Both the position numbers and the translations under genes were made by a program. The notes under the pieces were generated by a model. That model worked only from the letters and a program-made list of their open reading frames with translations. It did no database searches and was not told the DNA's origin. This document shows positions 5,042 through 64,000 of a stretch of 64,000 bases of DNA, piece after piece. The stretch lies in contig OZ024740.1 of the NCBI GenBank assembly GCA_964016885.1, positions 397,172,001 through 397,236,000 on the forward strand. Reading direction: 5' to 3'. The stretch is from Eledone cirrhosa. Its lineage: Eukaryota. Positions within the stretch are counted from its first letter, which is position 1. Each line of letters begins with the position of its first letter.

Positions 5042-5157
5042 ATATATATATGTATATATGTATATATATATGTATATATGTATATATATATGTATATATG
5101 TATATATATATGTATATATGCATATATACATACATATATGCATATATACGTACATAT

Positions 5158-5441
5158 ATCATCATCATCATTTTACTGATTCTGGCTTGATTTCTACAGC
5201 TGTATGCCCTTCCTAACACCAACCTCATTTACAGTGAGTGCTGGGTGCTTTTTTGCCGTGGCACCTCCACGACCACTTTGCAGTGGAATGATAGGGACCC
5301 CAGTCCCTATCATCTCATTTCTACAGCTGAGTAAACTGGAGCAATGTGAAATAAAGTGTCTTGCTCAAGGAAACAACACATCACCCGGTCTGAGAATTGA
5401 ACTCACAACCTTGCAAGCCCAATGCTCTAACCACTAAGCCA
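5158..5441 (-). mobile_element. tRNA-derived SINE with RTE-derived tail
   Basis: Minus strand has GGCTTAGTGGTTAGAGC (A box) and GAGTTCAATTC (B box), TTCCTTGAGCAAGACACTT, then GGTGTTAGGAAGGGCAT shared with the RTE 3' UTR, and (GAT)n. Confidence 0.8.
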
Positions 5442-29202: not shown

Positions 29203-29750
29203 GGTGGCTGCCAACTCGTTTTCGAGTACGGCCACTACTTTATATCCATGTAGGAGAACCCCTACCAATGCGCTGAACGAGTGTGACTTTTTAGTCCAGC
29301 CAGCGACTTGAAAACGCTGGTACAAACACTACACTTGTGACAATTATTGACACATAGTGCTGGGCCCATGGTACCATGTGACGACAAGTGCAGAGAGATC
29401 TCCAGATATAAAGCAATGCCTGTGCCGTGAAGCTTTTATAGTGAGCAAAGGCACTGCACAAAGCCAGTCCCACTCTCTTAACCAAGATGATATTTACCAA
29501 AAAGAAGAACAAGTCAACATCATTGGATACCATCAGGGTTGCAGGTGTTATATCAGAGTTTTCCTTCTCCTAGAATTCTGCCTTGACAAAGACTAAGGGG
29601 TCATCTCTCCCGGTGATTTTGGATGGCCATTGACTCTTAAGAGTTGCTCTTTGACAGGTTTTGTTTTTAGTCCTGCAGGATGTCCAAAGTCACCCTCCTC
29701 ACCAAGAAACCTTGGTGGGGTTGCCAGTTTAGTCGCCAACGACCCGACCA
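29203..29750 (-). mobile_element. Family X non-coding element, copy 3
   Basis: Near-identical to 16130-16682; (TA)n flanks. Confidence 0.75.
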
Positions 29751-30559
29751 TATATATATATATACATATATGTACACACATACATACATATACATATGTA
29801 ATGGCCCTCTTCTTTCATGTTAAGGAGGTGAAATCAGAATGTAAGAGGTCATATTACTCTAAGAGATATTGCAAGGCACCACATATGATGCTACAACAGT
29901 CACAGCAGTGCCACTCCATTGTAACCTTGAATGCAAGCAACACACACACACAAGTAAAACATATAAATATATACAGTATAAAAATAAATATGGTATACAT
30001 ATATTAATTTATATATAATAAAGAGCAACACAGATAAGGAAAACATTCTGTAAATGCGAGTACAGGAAGGAGAGATGTGGTCATTAAAATAGCAGAATGT
30101 TCCACTCTCTGTACTCAGATTTATGGACATTTCCTTGACACTGATTCTTTAATCTTCCGACGAGATACAAACCTATTTAAATACATACTAGGTGTAGAAT
30201 ATAAGTATTCTTCCTTATGTTTGTATTATTATTATCATAATCATTATTATTTATTACACTTGTCTATCCTAGTTAAGTGTTTAATGAAATTTGTGTTGAA
30301 ACAATTGTAAAGAATTAAATGATTTGAGAAGTTTTATCTGTTATCTTAATTTGTTTTATATGTTCTGTGTTAAAATTGCCACTTTTCTTTTACTCTTAAG
30401 ATTCTCTTCCCAATATTTCTATCCGAAAGAGCATAAACACTTAAATATGTGTGCTGTGTAATGTGAGTGAAGGGTGCATATGTGTTAGATGATATGAAAG
30501 GATGTTATATGGGTTAATATGTGTGTGGGTGAAGGGATCATGGAATGTATACTATTATG

Positions 30560-37082: not shown

Positions 37083-39990
37083 ATCATCATCATCATCACC
37101 GTTTTACATCTGTTCTTCCACGCTAGCATGGGTTAGACGTGTTGTCCTGTTGTGGGCAGTGTCTGGTCGGCTGACCATGTCTTGCTCATACAGGAACTGA
37201 TTCTGGCTTGATTTCTACAGCTGGATGCCCTTCCTAACACCAACCTCATTTACAGTGAGTGGTGGGTGCTTTTTTTCCGTGGCGCCTACACGTCCACTTT
37301 ACAGTGTGGGCTAGGTGCTTTTTTGTTGTGGCACCTCCACAACCACTTTGCAGTGAGAGGGTGTGGGGGATATTATCTATATGCTTCAGCTTCGGCTTGT
37401 ACCCATGGGAGGTCGGGTCTTCTGTATTACTGTGTGACGCCAGAGGCCACAGTCATGTGTCATCACCTTTGAGAGGTGTAATTGGGTAAGGTCGGCTTTT
37501 ATCACCTCATCCCAGGTCTTCTTGGGTCTCCCCACTCCGCGGCTTCCATCGACTTCTAGTGCTCTGCACCTTTTTATGCAGCTGTCATCCTTCATACACT
37601 TCACATGTCCATACCAATGCAACCTCCTCTCCTGCACACAGCATTTGATTCCTCTTATGCTCAGTCTCTCTCTCAATTCGATTATGCTTTGCCGGTCGCA
37701 TATATTACTATTACACATCCATCGGAACATGCAGACTTCGTTTCTTTCTAATCTATGCAAGTCTTCTACAGACAGCGCCCAGGTCTCACTTCCATGTAAC
37801 ATTGCTGTTCGTATACACGCATCATACAGTCTGCCTTTCATTTTGAGGGAAAACCTTTTGCAGTTAGCAGTGGCAGTAGCTCACTGAACTTCTTCCATTC
37901 CATTCTTACCCTAGTTATTGTACTTTCCGAACACCCACCGCCGCTGCTAATTCGGTCACCTAGGTAGCAGAAGCTGCCTACTGTTTCTACAGAGCCCTCC
38001 CAGAGTTTGGTGGTGCTTGCTTCCTGTGGCCATTTGCTGCTTGCTATCCCAGCACAGCTGCTACATGTGAAGCCTACATTCTTAGTTAAGCTTCCTGAGA
38101 TCCCACTACATCGCTTGTGTACTCATTGTTTGCATTTGGGAAGAAGATGGAGTTCCTACCTACACCTTTCCTACATACTGAGCAAGGCCATTTCCCTGAG
38201 GGGATCTGGGTTCTGTTTTCTCGTCTACTGACAAGGACCTTAGTCTTTGCCAGGTTGACTTTGAGACCCTTTCTTTATAATCCCTGCTTCCATGTTTGGA
38301 ATTTCTTCTCTAGTTCTACCATAGATTCAGCTATAAGTGCGAGGTCATCTGTATACAGGAGTTCCCATGGGCATCCGGTCTTAAACTCCTCCGTTATTGC
38401 CTGCAAAACTATGATGAACAGGAGAGGGCTAAGAACAGAGCTTTGGTGGACACCGACCTGTATGCTAAATTCCTTGCTATAGTCATTGCTAATCCTAACT
38501 TTGCTGACTGCTCCCCTATACATGGCTTGTACAGTTTTCCCAAGCCATTCATCTACTCTTAGTTTTGTAAGAGCCCACCAGATTATAGCACGTGGAACTC
38601 TGTCAAAGGCTTTCTCCAGATCGACGAATGCCAGGTAGAGCGGCTTACTTTTAGCTAGGTACTTTTCCTGTAACTGCCTCACAAGGAAGAGGGCATCAGT
38701 AGTGCCTTTTCCTGGCACAAACCCAAATTGTATCTCATCTAGTTTCACCCGGTCCCTAATCAACTGTGCTATAACTCCTTCTGTTACTTTCATTACCTGG
38801 TCCATCAGCTTTATACCTCTATAGTTTCCTCTATCTAGTGCATCACCTTTACCATTGTAGCAGTTGACAATGATGCTGCTGCACCAATCCTTTGGTATGA
38901 CACCTAGTATTACCTGGTTAACAATACGTGTGGTTATGGTGTAACCTCCTCCTGCCTGTGGTCTTATTCCAACCACAGATCTCATCCGTCGCCTTTAGTA
39001 AGTTATCTTTTAGGAACTCCCAGTGCTCTTCTACATTGAATGTCTCTATCTGTTCTTCTTTACTGTCATAGGCGTCGAGTAAAATATCTTTAAATCTATT
39101 ACTGGCTGAGGGGTATTTCTTCTCCAGGTTGCCTTCTGTTTCCAAGTTTGTCTAGTTCTGACCGTGAGGTTGCTGACAACTAAGCTATGTTGGGAGGTCC
39201 ATCTGTCACGTCCTCTGATGAGGATAAAATCTATCTGACTAGAATGCTCCCCTGATCTATAGGTTATCAGGTGGTTGTCGGGTTTTTTGAAGTTTGTGTT
39301 ACATATCGACATGTCATTGGCGTCGCATAATTCTAGAAGCCTGAAGCCTTCTTCATTTCTTGTGCCAAACCCCTGTCCTCCATGGACTCTATAGAAGCCG
39401 ACACAGTGTTTACCTACGTGTCCATTAAAATCTCCTGCAATGATTAGGAAGTCATAGTCATTTGTTAGAGCAGAAGTGTGTATTAGGGACTCATAAAACC
39501 TATGCTTAAGTTAGTCTGGCAACCCCGATCGGGGTGCGTGAGCTGATATTATTGTGGTAATTGTTTTATTCAGGACTAGTCTGAGTTTAATGATTCTTGC
39601 ATTCACTCTGTTCATTGAGATTACCTTATCTACTCCTTTGTCAGCTAGTAGGATACCTACCCCTCCCATCCCGTTGTCATTCCCCACCAAGAAAAATTTG
39701 TAGCACTGACTTTTGCTTACAAGCACTTTAGTGGACTCCCTCTCTCCATTTAGTCTCTTGCACACAGCATACATCAATTTCCTTTCGCTCTAGCATCTCT
39801 ACAATTTCTCCTGCTCTTCCTTTCATTGTGCTTACATTGATGGTTCCAACTCGGAGTTTTGGGCATTTGCCAACATTTGTGGGAAAGGGTAAATTTTTGC
39901 AGGGGTGTGTGTATGCTTCCTGTCTCTGAATTAAAAACTTTGCCTGGGTGCTTGGTAACTCGCGGATTCATATTCATTTCTTAATTCGGG
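37083..39990 (-). mobile_element. RTE family B-related near-full-length decayed copy
   Basis: APE remnants (GVGILLA, IISAHAP, GDFNGHVG, SQIDFIL), RT (YTDD) and (GAT)n tail; several frameshifts and a ~0.5-kb deletion at ~38945. Confidence 0.9.
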
Positions 39991-40608
39991 GTTGCTCCAT
40001 TTATCCTCAACTCATCCATACATAACAGTAAGAAAATTCAGGGCTAGAAGAACAGTGGTGGTGGTAATGGCAAGGTTTGTTGGGGCTGGTAAGGGTGAGA
40101 AGAAAGGTAGTAGTAGTAGTAGTAATGGCAGTTTATTTGAGTTGGTAATGGGGGTGGGGGGGACATGTTGCTGAGGTTTGATTGGTTGAGTAGGCTATGG
40201 TGGTGTGAGGGGGAGGGCAATTGTGAGATAGGTAGCCATCATGGCTTATAGCATCTCAGGAGATTTGGGTGAAATAATCCGATACAAGTACGTGTATTAG
40301 ACAAGGCGAATATGTTAGGATTTCGAAGAAGTTCATCGTAAACCTCAAATAGAGAGAGGAAGGGAGGTAAGGGAATAGATGACTTCGTAGAGACAGTCAT
40401 AATAGTCAATGTGGGAAAAACAAGAGTAAAGAATAAATATGCGTTATATTTATGATATATATATATATATGCATATAATATATATATATATATGCATATA
40501 ATATATATATATGCATATAATATATATATATATATATATGCATATAATATATATGAGTATAATATATATATATATATATATATGCATATAATATATATAT
40601 ATGAGTAT

Positions 40609-43267
40609 ATGTGAGGAATGTACATCCCAACATAGCTTAGTTGTCAGCGACCTCATGGTCAGAACTAGACGAGCCCTGAAACAGAGGCCAACCTGGAGAA
40701 GAAAGATCTGGAAGCTGAAAGTCCCCTCAACCAGTAACAGATTTAAAGATATTTTACTCAACGCCTACGACAGTAAAGAAGAACAGATAGAGACATTTAA
40801 CGTAGAAGAGAACTGGGAGTTCCTAAAAAATAACTTACTAGAGGCGACGGATGAGGTTTGTGGCTGGAGTAAGACCTCAAGCAGGAGGAGAGTGACTTGG
40901 TGGTGGAACAATAAGGTAGATGAAGCAGTCAAGGCCAAGAGACAGGCATGGAAAGAATGGAAGAACGGGGGGAGCAGGGTACATTACATAGAGACCAAGA
41001 GGGAAGCTAGGCGACAAGTATACTTAGCTAGGAGGGAAGCAGAGGATAGAAAATTCAAGCATGTTTTACAACGTGAGGACCAGAAACAGGAGGTATTCAA
41101 GATTGCGAGGCAGTGTGTCAGAGATAGTTGTGATGTCATTGGAGAGAAGTGTATCCGGAATGATAAAGGTGAGCTTGCCCTCACAAGTGCTGAGAAGAAA
41201 GATGCATGGAAGAGTCATTATGATAGATTACTAAATGAGGAGAATGCATGGGAAGAAGAGAGCCTACCCCATGTAGACCCTATAGAGGGACCAGCAGTAC
41301 AAGTCAGCGGCAGCGTAGTAAGTAAGGCAATCAGAGATATGAAGATGGGGAAGGCAACCGGTCCATCGGGTATAGCTGCCGAGATGCTGAAGGCATCTGG
41401 GTCTGTAGGTCACACTATGACCACACGTATCGTTAACCAGGTAATACTAGAAGGGGCCATACCAAAAGATTGGTGCAGTAGCATCATTGTCAACTGCTAC
41501 AAAGGTAAAGGCGATGCACTAGATAGAGTAAACTATAGAGGTATAAAGTTGATGGACCAGGTCATGAAAGTAACAGAAAGAGTTATAGCACAGCTGATTA
41601 GGGACCCGGTGAATATAGACGAGATGCAATTTGGGTTTGTACCAGGGAGAGGCACCACTGATGCCCTCTTCCTTGTGAGGAAATTACAGGAAAAGTACCT
41701 AGCTAAAAGTAAGCCACTCTACTTGGCATTTGTCGACCTTGAGAAAGCCTTTGACAGAGTTCCACGTGCTGTAATCTGGTGGGCTCTTAGAAAACTAGGA
41801 GTAGATGAATGGCTTGTGAAAGCGGTACAAGCCATGTATAGGGGAGCAGTCAGCAAAGTTAGGATTAGCAATGAGTATAGCGAGGAATTTAGCGTACAGG
41901 TTGGGGTCCACCAGGGCTCTGTTCTTAGCCCTCTCCTGTTCATCATAGTCCTGCAGGCAATAACGGAGGAGTTTAAGACCGGATGCCCATGGGAACTCCT
42001 GTATGCTGATGACCTCGCACTCATAGCTGAATCTATGGTAGAACTAGAGAATAAATTCCAAACCTGGAAGCAGGGACTAGAGAGAAAGGGCCTCAAAGTC
42101 AACATGACAAAGACTAAGGTCCTTGTAAGTAGACGAGAAAACAGAACCCAGATCCCCTCAGGGAAATGGCCTTGCTCAGTATGTAGGAAAGGTGTAGGTA
42201 GGAACTCCATTCTCTGCCCCAAATGCAAACAATGGGTACACAAGAGATGTAGTGGGATCTCAGGAAGCTTAATTAAGAATGTAGGATTCACATGCAGCAG
42301 CTGTGCTGAAACAGCAAGCAAACAGCCACAGGAAACAAGTACCACCAATCTCTGGGAGGGCCCTGTAGAAACAGTAGACAGCTTCTGCTACCTAGGTGAC
42401 CGAATTAGCAACGGAGGTGGGTGCTCAGAAAGTACAATAACTAGGGTAAGAATGGGATGGAAGAAGTTTAGGGAACTACTACCACTGCTAGCTGCAAAAG
42501 GCTTCTCCCTCAGAATGAAAGGCAGACTGTATGATGCGTGTATCCAAACAGCGATGTTGCATGGTAGTGAGACCTGGGCGCTGAAGGTGGAAGACTTACG
42601 TAGATTAGAGAGAAACGAAGCCTGCATGCTCCGATGGATGTGTAACAGTAATATACGTGAACGACAAAGCATAAAGGAATTAAGAGAGAGACTGAGCATA
42701 AGAGGAATCAAATGCTGCGTGCAGGAGAGGCGGTTACGCTGGTATGGACATGTGATGCGTATGAAGGATGACAGCTGCATAGAAAGGTGCAGAGCACTAG
42801 AAGTTGATGGAAACCGCGGAGTGGGGAGACCCAAGATGACTTGGGATGAGGTGATAAAAGCCGACCTTACCCAACTACACCTCTCAAAGACAATGACACA
42901 CGACTGTGACTTCTGGCGTCACGCAGTAATACAGGGTACCCGACCTCCCATGGGTACATGCTGAAGCATATAAACAATATGCCCCCACTCCCCCCACCGC
43001 AAGGTGGTCGTGGAGGTACCACAGCAAAAAAAGCACCCAGCCCACACTGTAAAGTGGACGTGTAGGCGCCACGAAAAAGCACCCAGCACTCACTGTAAAT
43101 GAGGTTGGTGTTAGGAAGGGCATCCAGCTGTAGAAATCAAGCCAGATCAGTTCCTGTATGAGCAAGGCATGGTCAGCCGACCAGACACTGCCCACAACAG
43201 GACAACCCGTCAAACCCATGCTAGCGTGGAAGAACGGACGTAAAACGGTGATGATGATGATGATGAT
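40609..43267 (+). mobile_element. RTE family B, young 5'-truncated copy with uninterrupted ORF (to 42964)
   Basis: ~785 open codons from the end of APE (EECTSQH) through RT ([27 protein letters not shown]) to [12 protein letters not shown]; 3' UTR and (GAT)n tail. Confidence 0.95.
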
Positions 43268-45123: not shown

Positions 45124-48100
45124 ATCATCATCATCATCATCAACGTTTAACGTCCGTGTTCCACGCTTGCATGGGTTTGGACGGGGGTAGTCCCACTTGA
45201 GGCAAGAGTGATTGTCTTGCTCGCATAGGACTGTCTGGCAGGTTTTCTACAGTTGGATGCCCTTCCTAACACCAACCACATTTACAGTGTGGGTCTGGAA
45301 GGTTTTTACCGTGTTGCCTACACAGCCACATTACAGCGTGGACTGTGTGTTTTTTTGTCGTGACACCTACACGATCTCATTTGTTTCGGCCTGGATGGCG
45401 CGGCACCAACATAACTTTACATAGAACGGGGTGGTGTGGATGGGGTGGGGGTGGTGGTGGTGGGACGGGGTGTATTTTGTTAGAGATGCCTACTGGCTGT
45501 AGTAGGTTTTACTATGTATTTAGGTAAGGCGGGTCTTCTCTGTTACTGAGTACCGCCAAAGGTCTCGGTCCAGTGACATTGTCTTGGAGAGGTGTAAGTG
45601 TGTGAGGTCGGAGTTTATCAGCTCGTCCCAGGTTTTTCTAGGTCTGCCTATTCCGTGGCTACCGTCTAGCTTTATTGCCCTGCACTTTGTTATACAGCTA
45701 TCGACTTTCATGCGCATCACGTGTCCATACCAACGTAGCCTTCTCTCGAGTAAACAACATCTGATCCCTCTTATTTCTAATTTTTTCCTTAGTTCGTTTA
45801 TGCTTTGCCGTTCACGTATATTACTGTTACACATCCAGCGGAGCATGCAAGCTTCGTTCCTCTCTAGTCTGCGTATATCCTCTGCACACAATGCCCAGGT
45901 CTCACTGCCATGCGACATTGCTGTTCGTATGCAGGCATCGTACAACCTGCCTTTCATTTTTAGGGAGAACCCTTTAGCAGCTAATAGTGGTATAAGCTCT
46001 CTGAACTTTTTCCAACCAGTTCTGACTCTAGCTACTGTACTTTCAGAGCACCCTCCCCCACTGCTGATTTTATCGCCCAGGTAACGGAAGCTGTCCACTA
46101 TTTCTATAGAACCCTCTGCGCAATTGAAAGAGCTAGTATTTTGTGGGCACTTGCTGCTACTTATTGCACCAGAGCACCGGCCACATGTAAAATCTATGTT
46201 CTTAGTTAGCTTACCTGTGATCCCACTACATCTTTTATGCACCCATACTTTGCATTTAGGACATAAAATGGAGTTTCTACCTATGCCTTTCCTACACACC
46301 GAGCACGACCATTTCCCAGAAGGGACCGCCGCCTTATTTTCTTTCCTACAAACTAGAACTTTAGTCTTAGCCAGGTTAATTTTAAGTGCTTTTGATTCTA
46401 GGCCGTGCTTCCATGTTTGGAATTTCTTCTCTAGCTCGGCCATTGATTCCGCTATGAGTGTCAGGTCGTCTGCGTATAGGAGTTCCCATGGGCAGCCGGT
46501 CTTGAACTCCTCTGTTATAGCCTGAAGGGCAATAATAAATAGTAGGGGGCTGAGAACAGAGCCCTGATGGACGCCAACTTTTACGCTAAACTCTTCACTA
46601 TATTCGTTGTTAATTCTAACCTTGCTGACTATTTCTTTATACATGGCTTGTATAGCACTCACAAGCCATTCAGCCATTCGTCAACGCCTAGTTTTCTAAG
46701 AGCCCACCAGATAATGGAGCGGGGGACTCTGTCGAAGGCTTTCTCCAAGTCGACAAAAGCTAAGTAGAGGGGTTTACCTTTAGCTAGGTACTTCTCCTGT
46801 AGTTGTCGTACAATGAAAAGAGCGTCTGTGGTACTTTTGCCTGACACAAACCCGAACTGCATTTCATCTAGGTCAATTCTCTCTCTGATTAGTTGCGCTA
46901 TTACTTTTTGCGTGACCTTCATGACCTGGTCGATTAATTTAATGCCTCTATAGTTACTCCTATCTAGGGCGTCTCCTTTACCCTTATAACAGTTAACGAT
47001 GATGATGCTATGCCAGTCCTTCGGAACAACCCCATTCTGTACGACTTGGTTAACTATGCGGGTGACCATGGTGTGTCCCACCGTGCCAGATGCCTTCAGC
47101 ATCTCGGCAACTATTTCCGAAGGTCCAGCCGCCTTACCCGTCTTCATATCCTTGATTGCCTTACTTATTATACTCCCCTCGACTAACACTGCTGGTCCCT
47201 CTATTGGGTCGATATGGGGGAGACTGTCTTTCTCCCATTTATTCTCCTCATTTAGTAGCCTTTCATAGTGACACTTCCAAGCTACCTTCATACCAGTGTC
47301 GGTGATGGCAAGTATGCCATCATCGTTAAGGACACACTTCTCCCCGACAATATCACGGTTTTCCTTGACGCATTGCCTAGCAATCCTGAACACCTCACGT
47401 TTTTGGTCCACGCGTTGTAGAATATGCTTGAACTTTCTTTCCTCTGCTTCCCTTCTTGCTAAGTACACTTGTCTCCTAGCTTCCCTCCTGGCCACTTGAT
47501 AGTCTTCTCTACTTCCCCCATCCCGCCATACTTTCCAAGCCTTTTTTTTGGCCTAATTGACCCCTCCACCTTACTGTTCCACCACCATGTTACTCTCCTC
47601 CTGCCTACAGGCCTGCTCCAGCCACAGACTTCGTCTGTTGCCATCGGCAGGTTTGCTTTCAGAAATTCCCACTGTCCCTCTATATTGTCTGACTCTAAAT
47701 GTTCTTCCTTACTGTCGAAAGCATCGAGTAATAGGCTTTGAAATTTATTTCTGGCTGTGGGGTCCTTTAGCTTCCATATTTTTCTCCTGAGGATAGTCCT
47801 CTTCTGCTGTCGAGTACGTCTCGTCCTGACTATGAGGTCGCTAATTATCAGTCTATGTTGGGAGGTGCATTCTTCATGGGGAAGGGATTTAGTGTTTACA
47901 ACAGACACTCTGTCACGTCTTCTGGTAAGGATATAATCTACCTGGCTTGTGTGTTCCCCGGATCTATAGGTGATCAGGTGATTGTCACGTTTTTTGAAGT
48001 TAGTGTTACAGATAGTTAGGTTATTTGCATCACAGAATTCCAGGATTCTGGAGCCTTCCTCATTTCTAGTACCAAACCCATAGCCTCCATGGATTTCGTC

Positions 48101-48797
48101 GTAGCCGTCACAATGTTGTCCAACGTGACCATTTAGGTCACCTGCAATAATTATATAGTCACTGTCGGATATTTGGGAGGTAGTTAGCATCAGTGTCTCA
48201 TAGAATCTGTCTTTTATAGTGCCGGGCAGTCCGGATTGGGGTGCGTACGCAGATATTACTGTCACCGTAGTTCTATTGAGGACAAGTCGTATTTTAATTA
48301 TTCTGTCGTTCACTCTATTTACGTCTATTATCTTATCTGCCCACTTTTCTGCTACCATGATTCCTGCTCCACCCAGCCCATCGTCGTTTCCCACCCAGAA
48401 AAGCTTATAACATCGTTTTTTACCCTCAATGAATCTAGCAGACCCACCCCTCCACCTGGTCTCTTGAATACAACAAACATCGACCTCCTTACGTTCAAGC
48501 ATTTCTACAACCTCGTTAGCGCGACCCTTTAGGCGGCCTACATTTATGGTACCAACTCTGAAGTTTTGGATTGCATTTGGAGGGTGGGGGGAGATGGGGT
48601 TATGTTAGCCGCCCGCGGTCGAAACAAAGAGGAGTGCTCGCATTCTCGTCCACGAGGTGAATTTGTCTTTAACTTTGGCATTTTCGCTGAGCGTCCAGAT
48701 TTTTCTCTCTCTTCCACTCTCCAGGATTCCGCAGTCCATCCATCCATCCATCATATATCGAAAGGCAACCGGGCAAGCGATAGTATAGGCCTCTGGA
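45124..48797 (-). mobile_element. RTE family A near-full-length copy (APE + RT), frameshifted
   Basis: APE (CIQETRW, SAYAPQ, GDLNGH, QVDYIL, SQH) at 47459-48502; RT at 45520-47495. Frameshifts at an 8-bp duplication AGCCATTC (46664-46679), near 47545 and near 48545. Confidence 0.95.
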
Positions 48798-51077
<2,280 letters not shown>

Positions 51078-51277
51078 NNNNNNNNNNNNNNNNNNNNNNN
51101 NNNNNNNNNNNNNNNNNNNNNNNNNNNNNNNNNNNNNNNNNNNNNNNNNNNNNNNNNNNNNNNNNNNNNNNNNNNNNNNNNNNNNNNNNNNNNNNNNNNN
51201 NNNNNNNNNNNNNNNNNNNNNNNNNNNNNNNNNNNNNNNNNNNNNNNNNNNNNNNNNNNNNNNNNNNNNNNNNNNNN
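51078..51277. other. Assembly gap (200 N)
   Basis: Run of N. Confidence 1.
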
Positions 51278-51369
51278 TTACTCTTATATATACACATAGT
51301 ATATATACATACACAACCTCACTTATACACATATACACATAAGTTATATTACAATAATAATAAAGAATA

Positions 51370-51404
<35 letters not shown>

Positions 51405-51525
51405 TATATACATATATATATATATACACATACATACATACACACACATACATACACATAAATATATACATACATAAATACACACATACGAATAAAGACA
51501 TATATTCACACATAGACACCTATAT

Positions 51526-51611
<86 letters not shown>

Positions 51612-53692
51612 CACACACACACAACCACACAGACACACATACACACTCACATATATATATATATATATATGTGTATGTGAGTGTGCGCAAATACACATAT
51701 ATATACACATACACATACAAACACACACAAACACATACATATGCATACGTGCACACACACACACATATAACACATAGATACGAAGATAAACATATAAATA
51801 GAGAGACATACAAATATATACAGAACCCATATACACATACATACAAACACGCATATACATATACATATATATATACACATATATATATTCCTATATACAA
51901 GCATACACATACATACACATATATACATATACATACACATATACATACCACACATTCACATACACATACATATATAATACATATATATACATATATATAC
52001 ATACATATGTATGTACAATCATATATACACACTCAATCTTACATTCATATTTACATGCTCATATATGTATTTTTATATTTAGAAATAAATACCAAAACCT
52101 ATATAGACACCCACCTACACATATATTCATACATATACGCTTACAAAAACAGATGATAATAGTATGGGGGAAAGGGGGGGTTTGGAGAAGGGGATCAAAG
52201 TAAATATATGTTTCAAGAAACATATAATATTTTCCGTATCTTAATTCAATGTATGTTCTTACATATTTTCAGTGCTAGGAAATACGAAATCTATGCATCT
52301 CAAAATAAAAAAGTATACCATTAATCATATGTTAACTAAACCAAAGATAGTCAACATATTGATTTCTAAGGTGTAAATTAGTTAGGTTTATAATATTTGA
52401 AGCAGAATTATGAAGTCAAACAGTAGTAGATTATTAATTACATTATAACTAAATTAAAGTTAATAACGTTATGGTATCAATATTAGGAGATGAATTTAGT
52501 AATAGGGAAAAGAAACCCAAATAAAAATAAAATAAAGTATTACATCGGTAGTAGCATATAAATTATATGTTAACTAAATTAAAAATTATATATTTATTTC
52601 AATAGTATACGTTAATTAGTATATGTTAATTAGGTATACAATACATAAAGCAGATATTGTATTTCATCAATAGCATAATATAATTATATGCAAATAAAAA
52701 TCAAAATTAATACGCATACATATACATATACATACACATACACATACATATACATATACACACATATATATATATATATATACATATATATACACATATA
52801 TACATATATAGTCACATAAATATACATACAGATACACATACAACACACACATATACATATACATATAGATATACATATCTTTTTCAAAAAATTGCACAGA
52901 ATATATTAACTAGGTATATATCCAAAACACATCCCATTCTATGATTACATGACATTCTGCAATTCGTCTGTACAAGGATACTAATTTTAAGCAAATTAAA
53001 ATTAAAGTTTTATGTTGATTAAAACTAAAACCAAATAATAAATATATTTCCAAAATGTATATTAATTAGGTCTATAATACTAAAAATTCTTTCTCCGTCA
53101 TAGGATACAAGATATTATTTTGTTATATTTTATCTGTAAAAGAATTATAATAAAAAAAAATTATAATAAAAGGTTAAAATAAATTAAAATTAATCTATAA
53201 ATTAAATTACTGAGTATATATTAGTAATATTTAAAGGTTTTTCAAAATTTATGATTACATAATATTTTCTCATCTGTAATAAAATATTAATTAAATTAAA
53301 TTTATAGGTTAACTAACATTTAAATTAAATTAAATTCTAGAATAATGTTATTAATTAGGTTTATAATATTTAAATGTTTTTTTTAGTTTATGATTACACG
53401 ATATAATTAATTCCTGTCTTTCATTTAATAAGATATCACTAGACTTCATTATTTCAAATAGTTCTTGGGAACATAATCTACATTCCTTTCTATTATTTTG
53501 ATAAGGGGTGGCTCTTTTGAGCACACTCCAGGTCAAATCATATTTTATATTTTTATTTTTATAACTATTGATTTTTTCTGCTAGAGATGTTGTATTAGCC
53601 AGTGCGGCATTTTTAAAGCTATGTTTGTGGGTATTATACCTTGTCTTAAAATTGTTAGAGGTAGCTCCTATATATGAGCAAATAGAATCTTT
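51278..53692 (-). repeat. Inverted copy of the PLE pseudo-LTR (left arm of giant palindrome)
   Basis: Reverse complement of 53693-56097; mirror ORFs 53351-53815(-) and 53568-54032(+); cut by the gap. Confidence 0.92.
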
Positions 53693-55768
53693 AGATTCTA
53701 TTTGCTCATATATAGGAGCTACCTCTAACAATTTTAAGACAAGGTATAATACCCACAAACATAGCTTTAAAAATGCCGCACTGGCTAATACAACATCTCT
53801 AGCAGAAAAAATCAATAGTTATAAAAATAAAAATATAAAATATGATTTGACCTGGAGTGTGCTCAAAAGAGCCACCCCTTATCAAAATAATAGAAAGGAA
53901 TGTAGATTATGTTCCCAAGAACTATTTGAAATAATGAAGTCTAGTGATATCTTATTAAATGAAAGACAGGAATTAATTATATCGTGTAATCATAAACTAA
54001 AAAAAACATTTAAATATTATAAACCTAATTAATAACATTATTCTAGAATTTAATTTAATTTAAATGTTAGTTAACCTATAAATTTAATTTAATTAATATT
54101 TTATTACAGATGAGAAAATATTATGTAATCATAAATTTTGAAAAACCTTTAAATATTACTAATATATACTCAGTAATTTAATTTATAGATTAATTTTAAT
54201 TTATTTTAACCTTTTATTATAATTTTTTTTATTATAATTCTTTTACAGATAAAATATAACAAAATAATATCATGTATCCTATGACGGAGAAAGAATTTTT
54301 AGTATTATAGACCTAATTAATATACATTTTGGAAATATATTTATTATTTGGTTTTAGTTTTAATCAACATAAAACTTTAATTTTAATTTGCTTAAAATTA
54401 GTATCCTTGTACAGACGAATTGCAGAATGTCATGTAATCATAGAATGGGATGTGTTTTGGATATATACCTAGTTAATATATTCTGTGCAATTTTTTGAAA
54501 AAGATATGTATATCTATATGTATATGTATATATGTGTGTTGTATGTGTATCTGTATGTATATTTATGTGACTATATATGTATATATGTGTATATATATGT
54601 ATATATATATATATATATGTGTGTATATGTATATGTATGTGTATGTGTATGTATATGTATATGTATGCGTATTAATTTTGATTTTTATTTGCATATAATT
54701 ATATTATGCTATTGATGAAATACAATATCTGCTTTATGTATTGTATACCTAATTAACATATACTAATTAACGTATACTATTGAAATAAATATATAATTTT
54801 TAATTTAGTTAACATATAATTTATATGCTACTACCGATGTAATACTTTATTTTATTTTTATTTGGGTTTCTTTTCCCTATTACTAAATTCATCTCCTAAT
54901 ATTGATACCATAACGTTATTAACTTTAATTTAGTTATAATGTAATTAATAATCTACTACTGTTTGACTTCATAATTCTGCTTCAAATATTATAAACCTAA
55001 CTAATTTACACCTTAGAAATCAATATGTTGACTATCTTTGGTTTAGTTAACATATGATTAATGGTATACTTTTTTATTTTGAGATGCATAGATTTCGTAT
55101 TTCCTAGCACTGAAAATATGTAAGAACATACATTGAATTAAGATACGGAAAATATTATATGTTTCTTGAAACATATATTTACTTTGATCCCCTTCTCCAA
55201 ACCCCCCCTTTCCCCCATACTATTATCATCTGTTTTTGTAAGCGTATATGTATGAATATATGTGTAGGTGGGTGTCTATATAGGTTTTGGTATTTATTTC
55301 TAAATATAAAAATACATATATGAGCATGTAAATATGAATGTAAGATTGAGTGTGTATATATGATTGTACATACATATGTATGTATATATATGTATATATA
55401 TGTATTATATATGTATGTGTATGTGAATGTGTGGTATGTATATGTGTATGTATATGTATATATGTGTATGTATGTGTATGCTTGTATATAGGAATATATA
55501 TATGTGTATATATGTATGTATATGTATATGCGTGTTTGTATGTATGTGTATATGGGTTCTGTATATATTTGTATGTCTCTCTATTTATATGTTTATCTTC
55601 GTATCTATGTGTTATATGTGTGTGTGTGTGCACGTATGCATATGTATGTGTTTGTGTGTGTTTGTATGTGTATGTGTATATATATGTGTATTTGCGCACA
55701 CTCACATACACATATATATATATATATATGTGAGTGTGTATGTGTGTCTGTGTGGTTGTGTGTGTGTG

Positions 55769-55818
<50 letters not shown>

Positions 55819-55968
55819 GATATATATATATATATATATATATGTGTATATAGGTGTCTATGTGTGAATATATGTCTTTATTCGTATGTGTGTATTTATG
55901 TATGTATATATTTATGTGTATGTATGTGTGTGTATGTATGTATGTGTATATATATATATATGTATATA

Positions 55969-56009
<41 letters not shown>

Positions 56010-56300
56010 CTTTATTATTATTGTAATATAACTTATGTGTATGTGTGTATAAGTGAGGTTGTGTATGTATATATACTATGTGTATATATAAGAGTAATGA
56101 AATATATATATATATATATATATGTGCATGTCTGTTTTTTATGTGTGTGTATATATATATATGTATGTGTATATGTGTATATATATATATATGTGTACGT
56201 GTGTGTATGTGGATATATATATATATATATATATATACATGTGGGTGTTTGTATGTGTATTTATGGTGGTATGAGTGTGTGGATATATATGTTTGTGTAT

Positions 56301-56332
<32 letters not shown>

Positions 56333-56353
56333 GAGTCTATGTGTGTGTGTATA

Positions 56354-56392
<39 letters not shown>

Positions 56393-57504
56393 GTGTGTAC
56401 GTGTTGCGCGTGAGTGTGTGTGTATTTATATCTTTTTATATGTGTATGTGTATGTTCGTGTAAATGTATGTGTGTGTATGACTGTATAGGTATGTGTGTA
56501 TGTATGTATGTGTAGATATCTCTATGTGCGCGTACATGTATGTATGTGTATGTATATCTGTATGTGTATGTACATTATATTATATTTATTATATTTTATT
56601 GTTTTTATTTTTTTATTTTTCTTAATTTATAGATACATTTATATTAGGCAGTCTGGTCTGACAATCTAATACTGACCCCTCCACCCCCCTCCCACCTAAT
56701 TTCTGTATCTTGATCTTGAAATGTGTGTACCAGTGTTTTTATGTGAGTGACTTAATTTCTATTTGCTTATGATTTTATATCCACATATATAAATGTGAGT
56801 GGGGGAGTGTGTGTGTTTGTATGTTCGTGGTTATGTGTATATTTATGCATATACGCACATGTATGTGTGATTATACTGATATGTGTGAGTATGAAAAAAA
56901 TATATTTATATGCTTGACTCCATAAGTATCATTGCGTATCTTATCAGCGCATTAAGCTTACAGAGATATTAACCTTGAAATTTTGTGTTTGCATCCATCT
57001 TTTTACTATGCACATACAAATTATACACACATTATTGTAAAATATGTGTAAGGTTTTTACATGTATATACACACACCAAACTGCTTTTAACCCTTTGTGT
57101 TTTCATTGGTCAATTTTGAACTGATATTTTGAATTGTTGTTATTATCAATAAATATACTTCATTATTTCTGAAGACGGCGTATATATGAGTTAGGTATGT
57201 ATATTTAATCTTGATAATTTGTATAATTTTGTATAATTTTGTACATAGATCTGTTAAATATGCATACCAATTATAACACATATATACCCTAGAAACGATC
57301 GTTAAATAGTGAACTTTTTTTGTTTAATATAAGGAATTGTTTGTTCATTATTTGTTTAATATTTTATCTTGACTCTGTATACCGTTTATCTTTCACCGAA
57401 AGTGGATTTTCATTACATCTCTTCTTTCCATGATATCCGGAATACATTGAGTTCTTCATACGGATTGGACACTACCGTAAACTCTTGGTAGATTTATCTA
57501 CATA
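53693..57504 (+). repeat. 5' pseudo-LTR of the PLE (~3.8 kb)
   Basis: Direct repeat of 59759-63574; starts inside the GIY-YIG coding region (DSICSYIGAT). Confidence 0.92.
57159..57313 (+). ncRNA. Type I hammerhead ribozyme with long stem II (5' pLTR)
   Basis: Stem I TTCATTATTT/AAATAGTGAA; CTGAAGA at 57169-57175; stem II 57176-57291; GAAA at 57292-57295; stem III AC-GATC-GT; predicted GUU cleavage after 57303. Confidence 0.78.
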
Positions 57505-57656
57505 ATTTTGCTCCTATTTTCACGGAAATATTCGTATTTTTGTACTGTATGTGTGTATTAATTTTATATTTATGTATAAACATATATATATGTATGATTT
57601 TGTAAACCCATATACATTTAGTTGAGCTCTTTCAATTGTCCATCATCCATATCACA

Positions 57657-60098
57657 ATGGAAAAACAATATTTAGGAACCTCCTTAAAAAACATACCAAT
57701 ACCTTCTAAGGACGACTTCTTACTCCTTATGATTCAGAAAACTAATAATTTTATCAGAAGGGTTAGATGGAGAGCCTACCACTTCGATAGAAAATCTATA
57801 CAAGCAGATCGGAAATATATGTATGATTTCAACACTTACAAGAATCCACCACACAACTTTTTACTTGAAGACTTCGAGAAAGACCTTTTTAATTTAATTA
57901 AACACCTCAAATTTAAAAAGTATAAATCCGTCTTTCAAAAGGACCTTGATTCTACCCTATTGGACCTAAAAAAGTCTAAAAAAATCCATGTCCACTCGGA
58001 CAAAACTGGTAACTTGTATCATATGGATATTGAACATTATAATGAGTTCATATATAAAGAACTCAGAAAAAATTATAAAAAATCTAATAATGTGTCACTC
58101 ACCAACATCAACAACAAAACACACAACATAGTAAAAAAACTAAATATTGAAGATAGAACTGAACCTTTGGCATTGAAAAGACCACACTTCAACCTGAAAG
58201 ATCACAAATCTAACTTTAACTCTAATCCTTCTATTAGACTTATATGTCCCTCCAAATCAGATATTGGAATAATTAGCAAAAAAATTTTAGATAGAGTCAT
58301 CCCACAAATAAGAAAATACGTTATTTTACCACTCTGGGAAAACACCTCCCAGGTAATTAATTGGTTTAAAAATATTAGGTGTAAATCTTCTGCTTCTTTC
58401 CTACAATTTGATATAGATAATTACTATTCTTCTATATCACCCATACTCCTGAACAAAGCATTAATATTTGCTAAAAATAGATCTAATTTAACTTCGGATG
58501 ACATTAACATTATTACACATGCTAGACAAACACTTATTGAATTTCAGAATGAATACTGGACCAGAAACACATACAGTAATCTTTTTGATATTACTATGGG
58601 TTCAAGCGATTCCGCCCAAATTACTGATCTTGTGGGCCTCTTTCTCCTTTTCAACATAAATGCCTCTTTTCCCCACCTCAAAGGTGGTTTATATCGTGAT
58701 GACTGTCTTCTTCTTTCTAACAACCTTAGCCTTTCAGAAATCGAAAAAAACAAAAAGCATATTAGAACTTTCCTTAAAGACTATTATAATCTTAATATTA
58801 CTTTTGAAAAAACAAGTAAAGTAGTAAATTTCCTAGATATAACTTTAGATTTAGCTACGGGTATATACCAACCTTACCATAAACCTAACCAAAACTTACA
58901 TTACATACACTCACAATCTAATCACCCTAAATCTATCCTTAAAAACCTTGCATATAATATATCACTTAGAATTTCTAACCTTTCTTCTAACCAAGATGTA
59001 TTTGATAAAAATGCGACCTTTTATAATGAAGCTCTAGATAGAAGTGGCCACAAAAATAGATTAGAGTATATACCTTCTACTAAAAATACTGAAAGCATAC
59101 AGCATAATATTACCAACAAACACCAAATGAAAAGTACACACCTAAATGCCACCCACAGTATACCCCAAAATACTAAATCTTCTAATATAAAGTATAGTAA
59201 CCCTCAAAAAACTACTCATCATACAACTATAATAAATATTAATAATAAAACTCCTAATAAAATAGATAAAACACCTAAATCTACAAATATAACTAAAAAT
59301 AGTTGTGGTGAGATCATTAACATTAATCCTCCTAGTAAAAATCATGATACAACATATAAAAATAATAAAAATAATAAACAACATAGAAACCGTAATAGAC
59401 GAGTTACTTGGTATAATGCTCCTTTTAATTTACAAGTTAAGGATAATATTGCTAAAAAATTTTTTTATATCCTTGAGAAAAACTTCCCGCCAAACCACAA
59501 ATACCATCAAATCTTAAATAGGTCTACAGTTAAATTCTCATACTCTACAACAAATAACATAAAACAAAATATAAGTGCATATAATGCATATAAATGTAAG
59601 AAAACCATAAGTATACCACCAGTACATCAAATTAACAATAATATCTCCTCAAATACAGAATTAACGAAAGGATGTAACTGTAGAAACAAAACAAACTGCC
59701 CATTAAAAGGGAATTGTCTTGTTAACAACATAGTCTATAAATGTAATGTTAAAACTAAAGATTCTATTTGCTCATATATAGGAGCTACCTCTAACAATTT
59801 TAAGACAAGGTATAATACCCACAAACATAGCTTTAAAAATGCCGCACTGGCTAATACAACATCTCTAGCAGAAAAAATCAATAGTTATAAAAATAAAAAT
59901 ATAAAATATGATTTGACCTGGAGTGTGCTCAAAAGAGCCACCCCTTATCAAAATAATAGAAAGGAATGTAGATTATGTTCCCAAGAACTATTTGAAATAA
60001 TGAAGTCTAGTGATATCTTATTAAATGAAAGACAGGAATTAATTATATCGTGTAATCATAAACTAAAAAAAACATTTAAATATTATAAACCTAATTAA
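57657..60098 (+). CDS. PLE polyprotein: reverse transcriptase + C-terminal GIY-YIG endonuclease (813 aa from first ATG)
   Basis: SLKNIP N-terminus; FDIDNYYSSI; FDITMGS; YRDD; VNFLDITL; YHKP; CNCRNKTNC (CxCx5C); IVY..YIGAT..FKTRYNTH; CRLC..E. No stops. Confidence 0.93.
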   Translation: MEKQYLGTSLKNIPIPSKDDFLLLMIQKTNNFIRRVRWRAYHFDRKSIQADRKYMYDFNTYKNPPHNFLLEDFEKDLFNLIKHLKFKKYKSVFQKDLDSTLLDLKKSKKIHVHSDKTGNLYHMDIEHYNEFIYKELRKNYKKSNNVSLTNINNKTHNIVKKLNIEDRTEPLALKRPHFNLKDHKSNFNSNPSIRLICPSKSDIGIISKKILDRVIPQIRKYVILPLWENTSQVINWFKNIRCKSSASFLQFDIDNYYSSISPILLNKALIFAKNRSNLTSDDINIITHARQTLIEFQNEYWTRNTYSNLFDITMGSSDSAQITDLVGLFLLFNINASFPHLKGGLYRDDCLLLSNNLSLSEIEKNKKHIRTFLKDYYNLNITFEKTSKVVNFLDITLDLATGIYQPYHKPNQNLHYIHSQSNHPKSILKNLAYNISLRISNLSSNQDVFDKNATFYNEALDRSGHKNRLEYIPSTKNTESIQHNITNKHQMKSTHLNATHSIPQNTKSSNIKYSNPQKTTHHTTIININNKTPNKIDKTPKSTNITKNSCGEIININPPSKNHDTTYKNNKNNKQHRNRNRRVTWYNAPFNLQVKDNIAKKFFYILEKNFPPNHKYHQILNRSTVKFSYSTTNNIKQNISAYNAYKCKKTISIPPVHQINNNISSNTELTKGCNCRNKTNCPLKGNCLVNNIVYKCNVKTKDSICSYIGATSNNFKTRYNTHKHSFKNAALANTTSLAEKINSYKNKNIKYDLTWSVLKRATPYQNNRKECRLCSQELFEIMKSSDILLNERQELIISCNHKLKKTFKYYKPN

Positions 60099-61834
60099 TA
60101 ACATTATTCTAGAATTTAATTTAATTTAAATGTTAGTTAACCTATAAATTTAATTTAATTAATATTTTATTACAGATGAGAAAATATTATGTAATCATAA
60201 ATTTTGAAAAACCTTTAAATATTACTAATATATACTCAGTAATTTAATTTATAGATTAATTTTAATTTATTTTAACCTTTTATTATAATTTTTTTTATTA
60301 TAATTCTTTTACAGATAAAATATAACAAAATAATATCATGTATCCTATGACGGAGAAAGAATTTTTAGTATTATAGACCTAATTAATATACATTTTGGAA
60401 ATATATTTATTATTTGGTTTTAGTTTTAATCAACATAAAACTTTAATTTTAATTTGCTTAAAATTAGTATCCTTGTACAGACGAATTGCAGAATGTCATG
60501 TAATCATAGAATGGGATGTGTTTTGGATATATACCTAGTTAATATATTCTGTGCAATTTTTTGAAAAAGATATGTATATCTATATGTATATGTATATGTG
60601 TGTGTTGTATGTGTATCTGTATGTATATTTATGTGACTATATATGTATATATGTGTATATATATGTATATATATATATATATATGTGTGTATATGTATAT
60701 GTATGTGTATGTGTATGTATATGTATATGTATGCGTATTAATTTTGATTTTTATTTGCATATAATTATATTATGCTATTGATGAAATACAATATCTGCTT
60801 TATGTATTATATACCTAATTAACATATACTAATTAACGTATACTATTGAAATAAATATATAATTTTTAATTTAGTTAACATATAATTTATATGCTACTAC
60901 CGATGTAATACTTTATTTTATTTTTATTTGGGTTTCTTTTCCCTATTACTAAATTCATCTCCTAATATTGATACCATAACGTTATTAACTTTAATTTAGT
61001 TATAATGTAATTAATAATCTACTACTGTTTGACTTCATAATTCTGCTTCGAATATTATAAACCTAACTAATTTACACCTTAGAAATCAATATGTTGACTA
61101 TCTTTGGTTTAGTTAACATATGATTAATGGTATACTTTTTTATTTTGAGATGCATAGATTTCGTATTTCCTAGCACTGAAAATATGTAAGAACATACATT
61201 GAATTAAGATACGGAAAATATTATATGTTTCTTGAAACATATATTTACTTTGATCCCCTTCTCCAAACCCCCCCTTTCCCCCATACTATTATCATCTGTT
61301 TTTGTAAGCGTATATGTATGAATATATGTGTAGGTGGGTGTCTATATAGGTTTTGGTATTTATTTCTAAATATAAAAATACATATATGAGCATGTAAATA
61401 TGAATGTAAGATTGAGTGTGTATATATGATTGTACATACATATGTATGTATATATATGTATATATATGTATTATATATGTATGTGTATGTGAATGTGTGG
61501 TATGTATATGTGTATGTATATGTATATATGTGTATGTATGTGTATGCTTGTATATAGGAATATATATATGTGTATATATGTATGTATATGTATATGCGTG
61601 TTTGTATGTATGTGTATATGGGTTCTGTATATATTTGTATGTCTCTCTATTTATATGTTTATCTTCGTATCTATGTGTTATATGTGTGTGTGTGTGCACG
61701 TATGCATATGTATGTGTTTGTGTGTGTTTGTATGTGTATGTGTATATATATGTGTATTTGCGCACACTCACATACACATATATATATATATATATGTGAG
61801 TGTGTATGTGTGTCTGTGTGGTTGTGTGTGTGTG

Positions 61835-61884
<50 letters not shown>

Positions 61885-62036
61885 GATATATATATATATA
61901 TATATATATATGTGTATATAGGTGTCTATGTGTGAATATATGTCTTTATTCGTATGTGTGTATTTATGTATGTATATATTTATGTGTATGTATGTGTGTG
62001 TATGTATGTATGTGTATATATATATATATGTATATA

Positions 62037-62077
<41 letters not shown>

Positions 62078-62370
62078 CTTTATTATTATTGTAATATAAC
62101 TTATGTGTATGTGTGTATAAGTGAGGTTGTGTATGTATATATACTATGTGTATATATAAGAGTAATGAAATATATATATATATATATATATGTGCATGTC
62201 TGTTTTTTATGTGTGTGTATATATATATATGTATGTGTATATGTGTATATATATATATATGTGTACGTGTGTGTATGTGGATATATATATATATATATAT
62301 ATATATACATGTGGGTGTTTGTATGTGTATTTATGGTGGTATGAGTGTGTGGATATATATGTTTGTGTAT

Positions 62371-62402
<32 letters not shown>

Positions 62403-62423
62403 GAGTCTATGTGTGTGTGTATA

Positions 62424-62462
<39 letters not shown>

Positions 62463-63574
62463 GTGTGTACGTGTTGCGCGTGAGTGTGTGTGTATTTATA
62501 TCTTTTTATATGTGTATGTGTATGTTCGTGTAAATGTATGTGTGTGTATGACTGTATAGGTATGTGTGTATGTATGTATGTGTAGATATCTCTATGTGCG
62601 CGTACATGTATGTATGTGTATGTATATCTGTATGTGTATGTACATTATATTATATTTATTATATTTTATTGTTTTTATTTTTTTATTTTTCTTAATTTAT
62701 AGATACATTTATATTAGGCAGTCTGGTCTGACAATCTAATACTGACCCCTCCACCCCCCTCCCACCTAATTTCTGTATCTTGATCTTGAAATGTGTGTAC
62801 CAGTGTTTTTATGTGAGTGACTTAATTTCTATTTGCTTATGATTTTATATCCACATATATAAATGTGAGTGGGGGAGTGTGTGTGTTTGTATGTTCGTGG
62901 TTATGTGTATATTTATGCATATACGCACATGTATGTGTGATTATACTGATATGTGTGAGTATGAAAAAAATATATTTATATGCTTGACTCCATAAGTATC
63001 ATTGCGTATCTTATCAGCGCATTAAGCTTACAGAGATATTAACCTTGAAATTTTGTGTTTGCATCCATCTTTTTACTATGCACATACAAATTATACACAC
63101 ATTATTGTAAAATATGTGTAAGGTTTTTACATGTATATACACACACCAAACTGCTTTTAACCCTTTGTGTTTTCATTGGTCAATTTTGAACTGATATTTT
63201 GAATTGTTGTTATTATCAATAAATATACTTCATTATTTCTGAAGACGGCGTATATATGAGTTAGGTATGTATATTTAATCTTGATAATTTGTATAATTTT
63301 GTATAATTTTGTACATAGATCTGTTAAATATGCATACCAATTATAACACATATATACCCTAGAAACGATCGTTAAATAGTGAACTTTTTTTGTTTAATAT
63401 AAGGAATTGTTTGTTCATTATTTGTTTAATATTTTATCTTGACTCTGTATACCGTTTATCTTTCACCGAAAGTGGATTTTCATTACATCTCTTCTTTCCA
63501 TGATATCCGGAATACATTGAGTTCTTCATACGGATTGGACACTACCGTAAACTCTTGGTAGATTTATCTACATA
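59759..63574 (+). repeat. 3' pseudo-LTR of the PLE (~3.8 kb)
   Basis: Direct repeat of 53693-57504 with few differences; ends GATTTATCTAC followed by (TA)n. Confidence 0.92.
63229..63383 (+). ncRNA. Type I hammerhead ribozyme with long stem II (3' pLTR)
   Basis: Copy of 57159-57313 at +6070. Confidence 0.78.
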
Positions 63575-63576
63575 TA

Positions 63577-63644
<68 letters not shown>

Positions 63645-63645
63645 C

Positions 63646-63694
<49 letters not shown>

Positions 63695-63817
63695 CATATA
63701 TATATATACATATATATATATACATATATATATATACATATATATATATATAGATATATATACATATATATATATATACATATATATATATACATATATA
63801 TATACATACATATATAT

Positions 63818-64000
63818 ATCATCATCATCATCATTTTACGTCCGCTTTTCCCTGCTTGCAAGGGTGGAACGGGTCTTATTCAGCACAGCATCTCTCCACT
63901 CGTCACGGTCCCTCGTCATCTCCACCGTGAGCTTCAATGATCTGAGGTCTGTTCTCACCACCTCCGCCCATGTTTTTCGTGGTCTACCTCTACCACGTCT
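63818..64000 (-). mobile_element. RTE LINE 3' end, third family
   Basis: (GAT)n tail; minus translation [25 protein letters not shown]; runs off the window. Confidence 0.85.

What the first reader, a model, noticed from the sequence alone, without database searches (positions are those of the whole stretch)
53693..63574. Intact Hydra-clade-like PLE with unusually long, microsatellite-laden pseudo-LTRs
Seen: an uninterrupted 813-aa ORF, near-identical 3.8-kb pLTRs, a 6.07-kb unit, and ~3.4 kb of 3' non-coding sequence of which ~1.3 kb is (TA/TG)n carried as cargo. Known (from recall): CxCx5C linker, C-terminal CxxC, no CCHH finger and (TA)n insertion characterise the Hydra clade, whose members are usually under ~3 kb. 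Inference: a recently active, oversized member that spreads copies of its own target-like sequence.
Basis: partly seen in the sequence, partly recalled or inferred. Interest (0 to 1): 0.7.

Follow-up and report, generated by a model that had tools for sequence, protein, structure and literature searches.

The report
Oversized, young Hydra-clade Penelope retrotransposon
This is an intact copy of a very young jumping-gene family of a known kind (Hydra-clade Penelope) that is twice the usual length because of a repeat-stuffed non-coding end, and whose copies land as back-to-back pairs ending at two different fixed points, which likely means both cut DNA ends are used to start copying.

Summary
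Confirmed: intact 813-aa RT/GIY-YIG ORF, 99.8%-identical 3.8-kb repeats, 6,070-bp unit, 3.48-kb 3' UTR with 1.37 kb of TA/TG repeat. Every published Hydra-clade motif is met, plus a long-stem hammerhead. It is not a local duplication: at least 90 RT copies are 99-100% identical, and all 38 fetched ORF copies carry the long UTR (17 a 0.6-kb longer form). Corrections: pLTR length is copy-specific (45 bp to 5.6 kb); an inverted arm (51278-53694) was missed; the internal repeats are G-skewed rather than pure target, and no 3' end falls in them. The UTR grew partly from ~140-bp duplications of the ORF end. Most useful result: 3' ends sit at two fixed points 137 nt apart, and 36 of 36 two-armed insertions use one of each, which suggests priming from both cut ends. 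The scan noted this two-end rule before on other DNA of this genome; long, repeat-padded PLEs are known in other clades. A new oversized variant of a known clade, and a good test system for how Penelope elements insert.

The parts
51278..53694 (-). Inverted, 5'-truncated arm (unit positions 2251-4661); its outer end is hidden in the N gap 51078-51277
   Evidence: 99.3% identical to the direct copies
53693..57504 (+). 5'-truncated upstream tandem copy (5' pLTR, unit 2255-6070)
   Evidence: 99.82% to 59759-63574
57159..57313 (+). Upstream copy of the hammerhead motif
   Evidence: no difference from 63229-63383
57505..63574 (+). One full 6,070-bp unit
   Evidence: the same head-to-tail junction precedes all 38 fetched ORF copies
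57657..60098 (+). 813-aa ORF: RT (RWR, DKT, FD..YY, YRDD), thumb, CxCx5C linker, C-terminal GIY-YIG endonuclease with R/H/E/N, CxxC and CxH
59082..59366 (+). About 90-95-aa N/K/T-rich insert between thumb and linker, absent from most homologues; holds a degenerate ~131-nt duplication
   Evidence: alignment occupancy near 0; z=6.0 against 300 shuffles
60045..61144 (+). Degenerate ~140-165-bp tandem relics of the ORF end (three clear, up to three more faint)
   Evidence: first unit against second z=5.5, third z=7.3, a later one z=3.3; three further segments not significant (a fourth, short one z=2.4)
60570..60733 (+). Internal TA/TG tract 1
61440..62641 (+). Internal degenerate TA/TG tract 2; 1.2 kb here, 1.73-1.81 kb in the long variant
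63229..63383 (+). Hammerhead motif, canonical CUGAAGA/GAAA core, 10-bp stem I, very long stem II; predicted cut after 63373
   Evidence: fold; 5' core in 38 of 38 copies; not reported by Rfam
63438..63574 (+). 137-nt tail between the short fixed end (63437, unit 5933) and the long fixed end (63574, unit 6070)
63575..63819 (.). (TA)n host tract on the right; (TA)n also at 48797-51066 on the left

Best explanation
An intact, very young Hydra-clade Penelope-like retrotransposon whose 6.1-6.7-kb unit owes its size to a 3.5-4.1-kb 3' UTR, likely passive cargo built by internal duplication and repeat slippage, and which likely inserts by priming both cut ends of a (TA)n tract at two fixed sites of its RNA. 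Shown: intact ORF, many near-identical dispersed copies, inherited UTR, two fixed 3' ends, reciprocal use of them, (TA)n flanks. Inferred: the endonuclease cuts both strands of the self-complementary TA tract; one end primes at unit 6070 and the other at 5933, helped by 2-3 nt of TA microhomology; the two cDNAs run on a longer-than-unit (multimeric or circular) RNA, stop at variable points and are joined head to head, which gives the variable pLTR and the inverted arm. The UTR can swell because the signals the enzyme would need (hammerhead, tail, two start sites) lie in the last 350 nt.
For: At least 90 RT copies at 99-100%. 190 exact matches to a 29-nt ORF-start word and 240 to a mid-UTR word. 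Mean pairwise divergence 0.76%, and 36 of 38 frames open from codon 33 to the stop. Reciprocal ends in 27 of 27 insertions with both ends in view (p=1.5e-8), 2 more completed, and 7 of 7 UTR-selected pairs: 36 of 36. Two older ~90% stubs follow the same rule. Genome-wide, 4,363 long ends against 3,618 short ends with a relaxed pattern. The tail is on the ORF-bearing arm in 11 and on the other arm in 16 of the 27, so the tailed arm is often the short one. In 14 of 19 long inverted arms the best match is their own direct unit. In vitro, a Poseidon protein cuts and extends both strands and starts at two sites that bracket the tail (PMC11167929). UTR duplications; length polymorphism.
Against: Nothing biochemical was tested. 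3 of 35 ORF-selected insertions have only one arm, and 3 two-armed ones could not be resolved. In this window the two arms end within 4 nt of each other, as a fold-back would give (within 100 nt in 5 of 33 junctions, read by hand). The strict short-end pattern gave only 499 matches; balance needs the relaxed pattern, which I chose after seeing older copies. The tree has no named Hydra reference. A function for the UTR (promoter, intron) is not excluded. Only about a third of the UTR is explained by detectable duplications.
Confidence: 0.68

Rival explanations
1. One priming event followed by fold-back or self-priming and endonuclease trimming: the inverted arm is a copy of the first cDNA, and the tail is removed on one side during resolution.
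For: Published suggestions (PMC8557442 section 6; PMC3846280 passages). The window's own arms meet in a near-perfect palindrome. Arms usually share a source.
Against: Inner ends of the two arms differ by more than 100 nt in 28 of 33 junctions, and either arm can be the tailed or the longer one. A short tailed cDNA cannot template a longer untailed arm without returning to RNA.
Confidence: 0.2
2. The internal TA/TG tracts are functional target mimics: priming aids, or landing sites that let the family seed its own niche.
For: Every fetched ORF copy carries 1.4-2.0 kb of such repeat. One TA-resident 593-bp element sits in one copy's tract and is absent from that insertion's other arm.
Against: No outer end lies inside a tract: 27 of 29 UTR-selected arms reach a fixed end and 2 stop at N gaps. 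No self-nesting was seen in the fetched copies. Tracts are G-skewed, with pure runs of 13 units or fewer. A 0.6-kb loss marks 21 of 38 copies, which kept spreading.
Confidence: 0.1
3. The long UTR is functional: it holds the promoter or a retained intron for the downstream tandem unit.
For: 5'-UTR introns and pLTR promoters are known in PLEs. Mid-UTR sequence is present at 96-100% in contigs of three other coded organisms.
Against: ORF-bearing copies often have under 500 bp upstream; the UTR tolerates indels; a sister family has only 1.0 kb.
Confidence: 0.15
4. Local tandem duplication or assembly artefact.
For: The insertion adjoins an N gap and a long palindrome.
Against: The same unit occurs on many contigs with distinct flanks; the inverted arm has its own variants.
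Confidence: 0.01

Closest known systems
Hydra clade of C-terminal EN+ PLEs (Craig et al. 2021, PMC8557442), e.g. Hydra-1_Obim, Hydra-1_Crog
   Same: Single ORF, RW(K/R), DKT, CxCx5C, CxxC and CxH, no CCHH, hammerhead near the 3' end, (TA)n insertion; N-terminus collinear by eye with the published proteins shown.
   Different: Unit 6.07-6.7 kb against 1.08-3.05 kb for the 27 listed families; ~95-aa linker insert; hammerhead spanning 155 nt, with a very long stem II, against 80-100 nt listed with flanks; hammerhead sequence differs from Hydra-1_Obim.
Poseidon PAc of Anolis (Frangieh et al. 2024, PMC11167929)
   Same: Two fixed ends that bracket a tail; AT-rich target; tandem units.
   Different: Other clade; the published tail is 30-40 bp against 137 nt here; the parts read do not report strict one-of-each use in two-armed insertions.
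Chlamys PLEs (3.3-8.2 kb, some lengthened by tandem repeats) and Adineta vaga Pen1 (0.9-1.5-kb spacer before the 3' pLTR; Asn-rich ORF inserts in Pen2a/3/4)
   Same: Precedents for long, repeat-padded PLEs and N-rich inserts.
   Different: Other clades; Pen1 spacers differ between copies (host DNA capture), whereas this UTR is inherited family-wide.
Sister Hydra family in the same genome (713-aa frame, L137-L166)
   Same: Same motifs, TA targeting, TG-rich UTR with an internal duplication seen by eye.
   Different: 48% RT identity; UTR about 1.0 kb; no linker insert.

Membership tests
Hydra-clade PLE | Single ORF, RT with C-terminal GIY-YIG EN, R/H/E/N residues | tested here: met
   (conserved columns against 81 homologues); Pfam gave no RT or GIY-YIG hit
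Hydra-clade PLE | RWK motif; GxKF/Y not conserved | tested here: met
   RWR variant, also seen in published Hydra-1_Crog; no GxK[FY] in the query
Hydra-clade PLE | DKT in place of DKG | tested here: met
Hydra-clade PLE | CxCx5C linker; no CCHH; CxxC and CxH around E and N | tested here: met
Hydra-clade PLE | Canonical hammerhead near the 3' end | tested here: met
   core and stems by inspection and fold; Rfam listed no hammerhead among the 150 of 170 matches shown; cleavage untested
Hydra-clade PLE | Insertion into (TA)n | tested here: met
   all terminal ends printed run into TA repeats
Hydra-clade PLE | Generally short (<3 kb); descriptive, not diagnostic | tested here: not met
   6.07-6.7 kb
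Hydra-clade PLE | RT phylogeny with named Hydra references | tested here: inconclusive
   query plus 23 Hydra-motif rows split 100/99 from 6 canonical PLE rows of this genome; the homologues were chosen by likeness to the query and named references were not in the tree
Neptune / Nematis / Penelope-Poseidon | CCHH finger, DKG, GxKF (and Cx2-5CxxC in Neptune and Nematis) | tested here: not met
   best identity 24-28% over the RT core to such elements of this genome
Naiad / Chlamys | N-terminal EN | tested here: not met
   the EN is C-terminal

The most novel reading that the evidence does not exclude
A currently active Hydra-clade family in which every two-armed insertion is written from both ends of a cut (TA)n tract by one RT-EN dimer, using two RNA start sites 137 nt apart, one per end. 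This would explain the tail, the inverted arm and the pLTR of Penelope elements with one mechanism, and show that everything between stop codon and hammerhead is free cargo space of up to 4 kb.
Probability: 0.55. Interest if true: 0.65.

Novelty: new variant of a known kind. Interest (0 to 1): 0.45.

Why it matters
How Penelope-like elements make their tandem and inverted structures is an open question in the papers read (PMC8557442 section 15; PMC11167929). This family supplies intact ORFs, hundreds of near-identical insertions, a defined target and two base-precise ends, so twin priming can be tested in vitro. It doubles the known size range of the Hydra clade and shows that kilobases of low-complexity UTR are copied faithfully, which bears on repeat annotation: such elements are likely to be broken up as simple repeats.

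Tried and rejected
ADAR editing as the source of the TG bias: rejected. Singleton A>G 34 against T>C 26 in non-repeat sequence (p=0.52); arm-to-arm changes in the tracts were G>A 12, A>G 7. Internal priming at the tracts: no case; three apparent cases were indels and reached the short end. 5' truncation at the tracts: 2 of 34 after hand correction (one search printed 3), no enrichment. Pfam, PDB and Rfam gave nothing useful (the Rfam hits are hairpin and microsatellite artefacts below cut-off). The Atlas could not read the query; a homologue returned HTH_animal/GIY-YIG/RVT clusters, a lead only. No RNA holder was listed. Low-share runs that I did not lay were not used. Contigs laid do not bridge ORF and mid-UTR, and the organisms are coded, so horizontal transfer was not assessed. 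The repeat finder was swamped by TA repeats. Look-ups of earlier findings by sequence were blank. Paper searches. None listed a paper on this family or on twin priming in PLEs (2 papers, listing only); subscription journals, Repbase and Dfam were not searched.

Full report
Unit coordinates are window position minus 57504.

Observation. The ORF 57657-60098 is open for 813 aa. The two direct repeats match at 99.82%, the unit is 6,070 bp, and the 3' UTR is 3,476 nt with 1,366 nt of degenerate TA/TG repeat. An inverted arm, 51278-53694, abuts the 5' repeat and runs into a 200-N gap. The insertion therefore has the inverted arm + partial tandem + full unit layout described for PLEs (PMC8557442 section 6), inside (TA)n.

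Clade. I read sections 3, 6, 9, 11, 12, 15 and 20 of Craig et al. 2021 and parts of its supplement. The protein has RWR, DKT, CxCx5C, CxxC before E, CxH after N, and no CCHH or GxKF. Of 81 homologues of 650-830 aa, 81 have DK[TS], 78 the CxxC, 58 RW[KR] and 44 the strict CxCx5C. A 30-row RT tree (22 of 118 homologues, picked by me) separates the query group from six canonical PLE rows of this genome at 100/99; named references were absent, so this is support, not proof. By eye the N-terminus is collinear with published Hydra proteins. A hammerhead with canonical core and very long stem II lies at 63229-63383. The 27 published Hydra families are 1,080-3,045 bp, so this unit is at least twice as long. 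The protein also has a ~90-95-aa N/K/T-rich insert, which recalls rotifer Penelope inserts (PMC3846280 passages).

Family and age. All 90 scored RT matches are 99-100% identical. Exact words give 190 ORF starts and 240 mid-UTR copies, and 4,363 long 3' ends including older subfamilies. I fetched both sides of 38 of the 40 full-length DNA hits. In an alignment of 37 of them plus the window copy, mean divergence is 0.76% and 36 of 38 frames are open. All carry the long UTR. Seventeen have a further ~0.6 kb of complex TA/TG sequence; these include the deepest branch, so the window's form is probably a deletion (inference; unrooted tree). Tandem arrays of three units occur elsewhere. The upstream pLTR ranges from 45 bp to about 5.6 kb in 34 insertions, so 3.8 kb is a property of this copy. 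Contigs of other coded organisms cover the ORF, both UTR ends and the UTR middle, without bridging them. Earlier scan notes call the host an octopus; I did not check this. Recently active PLE families are reported in Octopus vulgaris (PMC13282606 passages).

The UTR. Its first 1.1 kb holds degenerate ~140-165-bp copies of the ORF end: z=5.5, 7.3 and 3.3 against shuffles, one short segment at 2.4, three not significant; one of the control pairs reached z=3.6, so only the first two are firm. The linker insert holds a similar duplication (z=6.0). Small duplications and deletions segregate among copies. The main tract is 249 G to 44 C on the sense strand, with pure TA runs of at most 13 units, unlike the near-pure TA flanks. 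No end lies in it, and no family copy was nested in it; one foreign 593-bp element was, on one arm only. ADAR editing does not explain the skew. A sister family has a 1.0-kb TG-rich UTR. I read the UTR as cargo grown by duplication and slippage; the origin of the TG skew is unexplained.

Ends and mechanism. The 38 hits are 35 insertions: 3 one-armed and 32 two-armed. All 27 with both ends in view have one end at 6070 and one at 5933, allowing for a few nucleotides or a substitution in five. Two more were completed, three stay open, and 7 of 7 UTR-selected pairs agree. A strict short-end pattern found 499 matches against 631 read-throughs; a relaxed one found 3,618 against 4,363 long ends. Both ends finish in 2-3 nt that could pair with TA. 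The tailed arm may be the longer or the shorter one, which a simple fold-back does not explain. Frangieh et al. (parts 1-2 of 4 read) showed two start sites and extension of both strands for a Poseidon element. I infer twin priming on a longer-than-unit RNA, since every ORF copy is preceded by the unit's own 3' end. This reading was offered by earlier scan notes and is tested here on a further family. Against it, the window's own arms meet within 4 nt, as do 5 of 33 junctions within 100 nt.

Verdict. A real, new oversized variant of a known clade. Length and repeat padding have precedents in Chlamys and rotifer PLEs; five paper searches listed no description of this family or of the strict reciprocal rule. 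Only 4 look-ups were made in the Craig supplement, and supplements of the other papers were not seen; they may bear on novelty. Interest 0.45.

Noticed in passing
window 16130-16722, 29203-29751, 4711-5041; L031 4764-5356: A 593-bp repeat with fixed ends and a C2H2-finger-like coding remnant; complete copies are 97% alike, sit in TA tracts, and the L031 copy has an 8-bp flanking duplication.
   Followed up: partly
alignment of 38 copies, non-repeat columns: Sense-strand A>T singletons outnumber T>A 37 to 7 (p=1.2e-5): a strand-biased signature, possibly RT misincorporation opposite A or a modified A.
   Followed up: partly
L137-L166: Second abundant Hydra family (713-aa frame, 48% RT identity, 76 scored matches) with a 1.0-kb UTR and no CUGAnGA core found in it.
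   Followed up: partly
L227-L243: Canonical CCHH-bearing PLE families (Neptune-like, and one Penelope/Poseidon- or Nematis-like) with long open frames, up to 1,096 aa.
   Followed up: partly
L062/L100 (C1:336346): Copy with the long UTR variant that falls among short-variant copies in the tree: possible template-switch recombinant.
   Followed up: no
L067 (C1:273664300); L073: Internal jumps (unit 5851 to 270; 5429 to 5602) in tandem copies, consistent with template switching.
   Followed up: no
window 5442-8259: 48-bp satellite, 59 copies, 93% matches, with related units at 11264 and 37241.
   Followed up: no
window 2367-3843, 14159-15400, 38275-38994, 40592-42964, 45520-48604: Non-LTR RT frames (CR1-like and RTE-like by recall), one open for 790 aa.
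   Followed up: no
runs X4, X6, X8: Pieces 96-100% identical to this element in three other coded organisms; close relatives or transfer, not resolved.
   Followed up: partly
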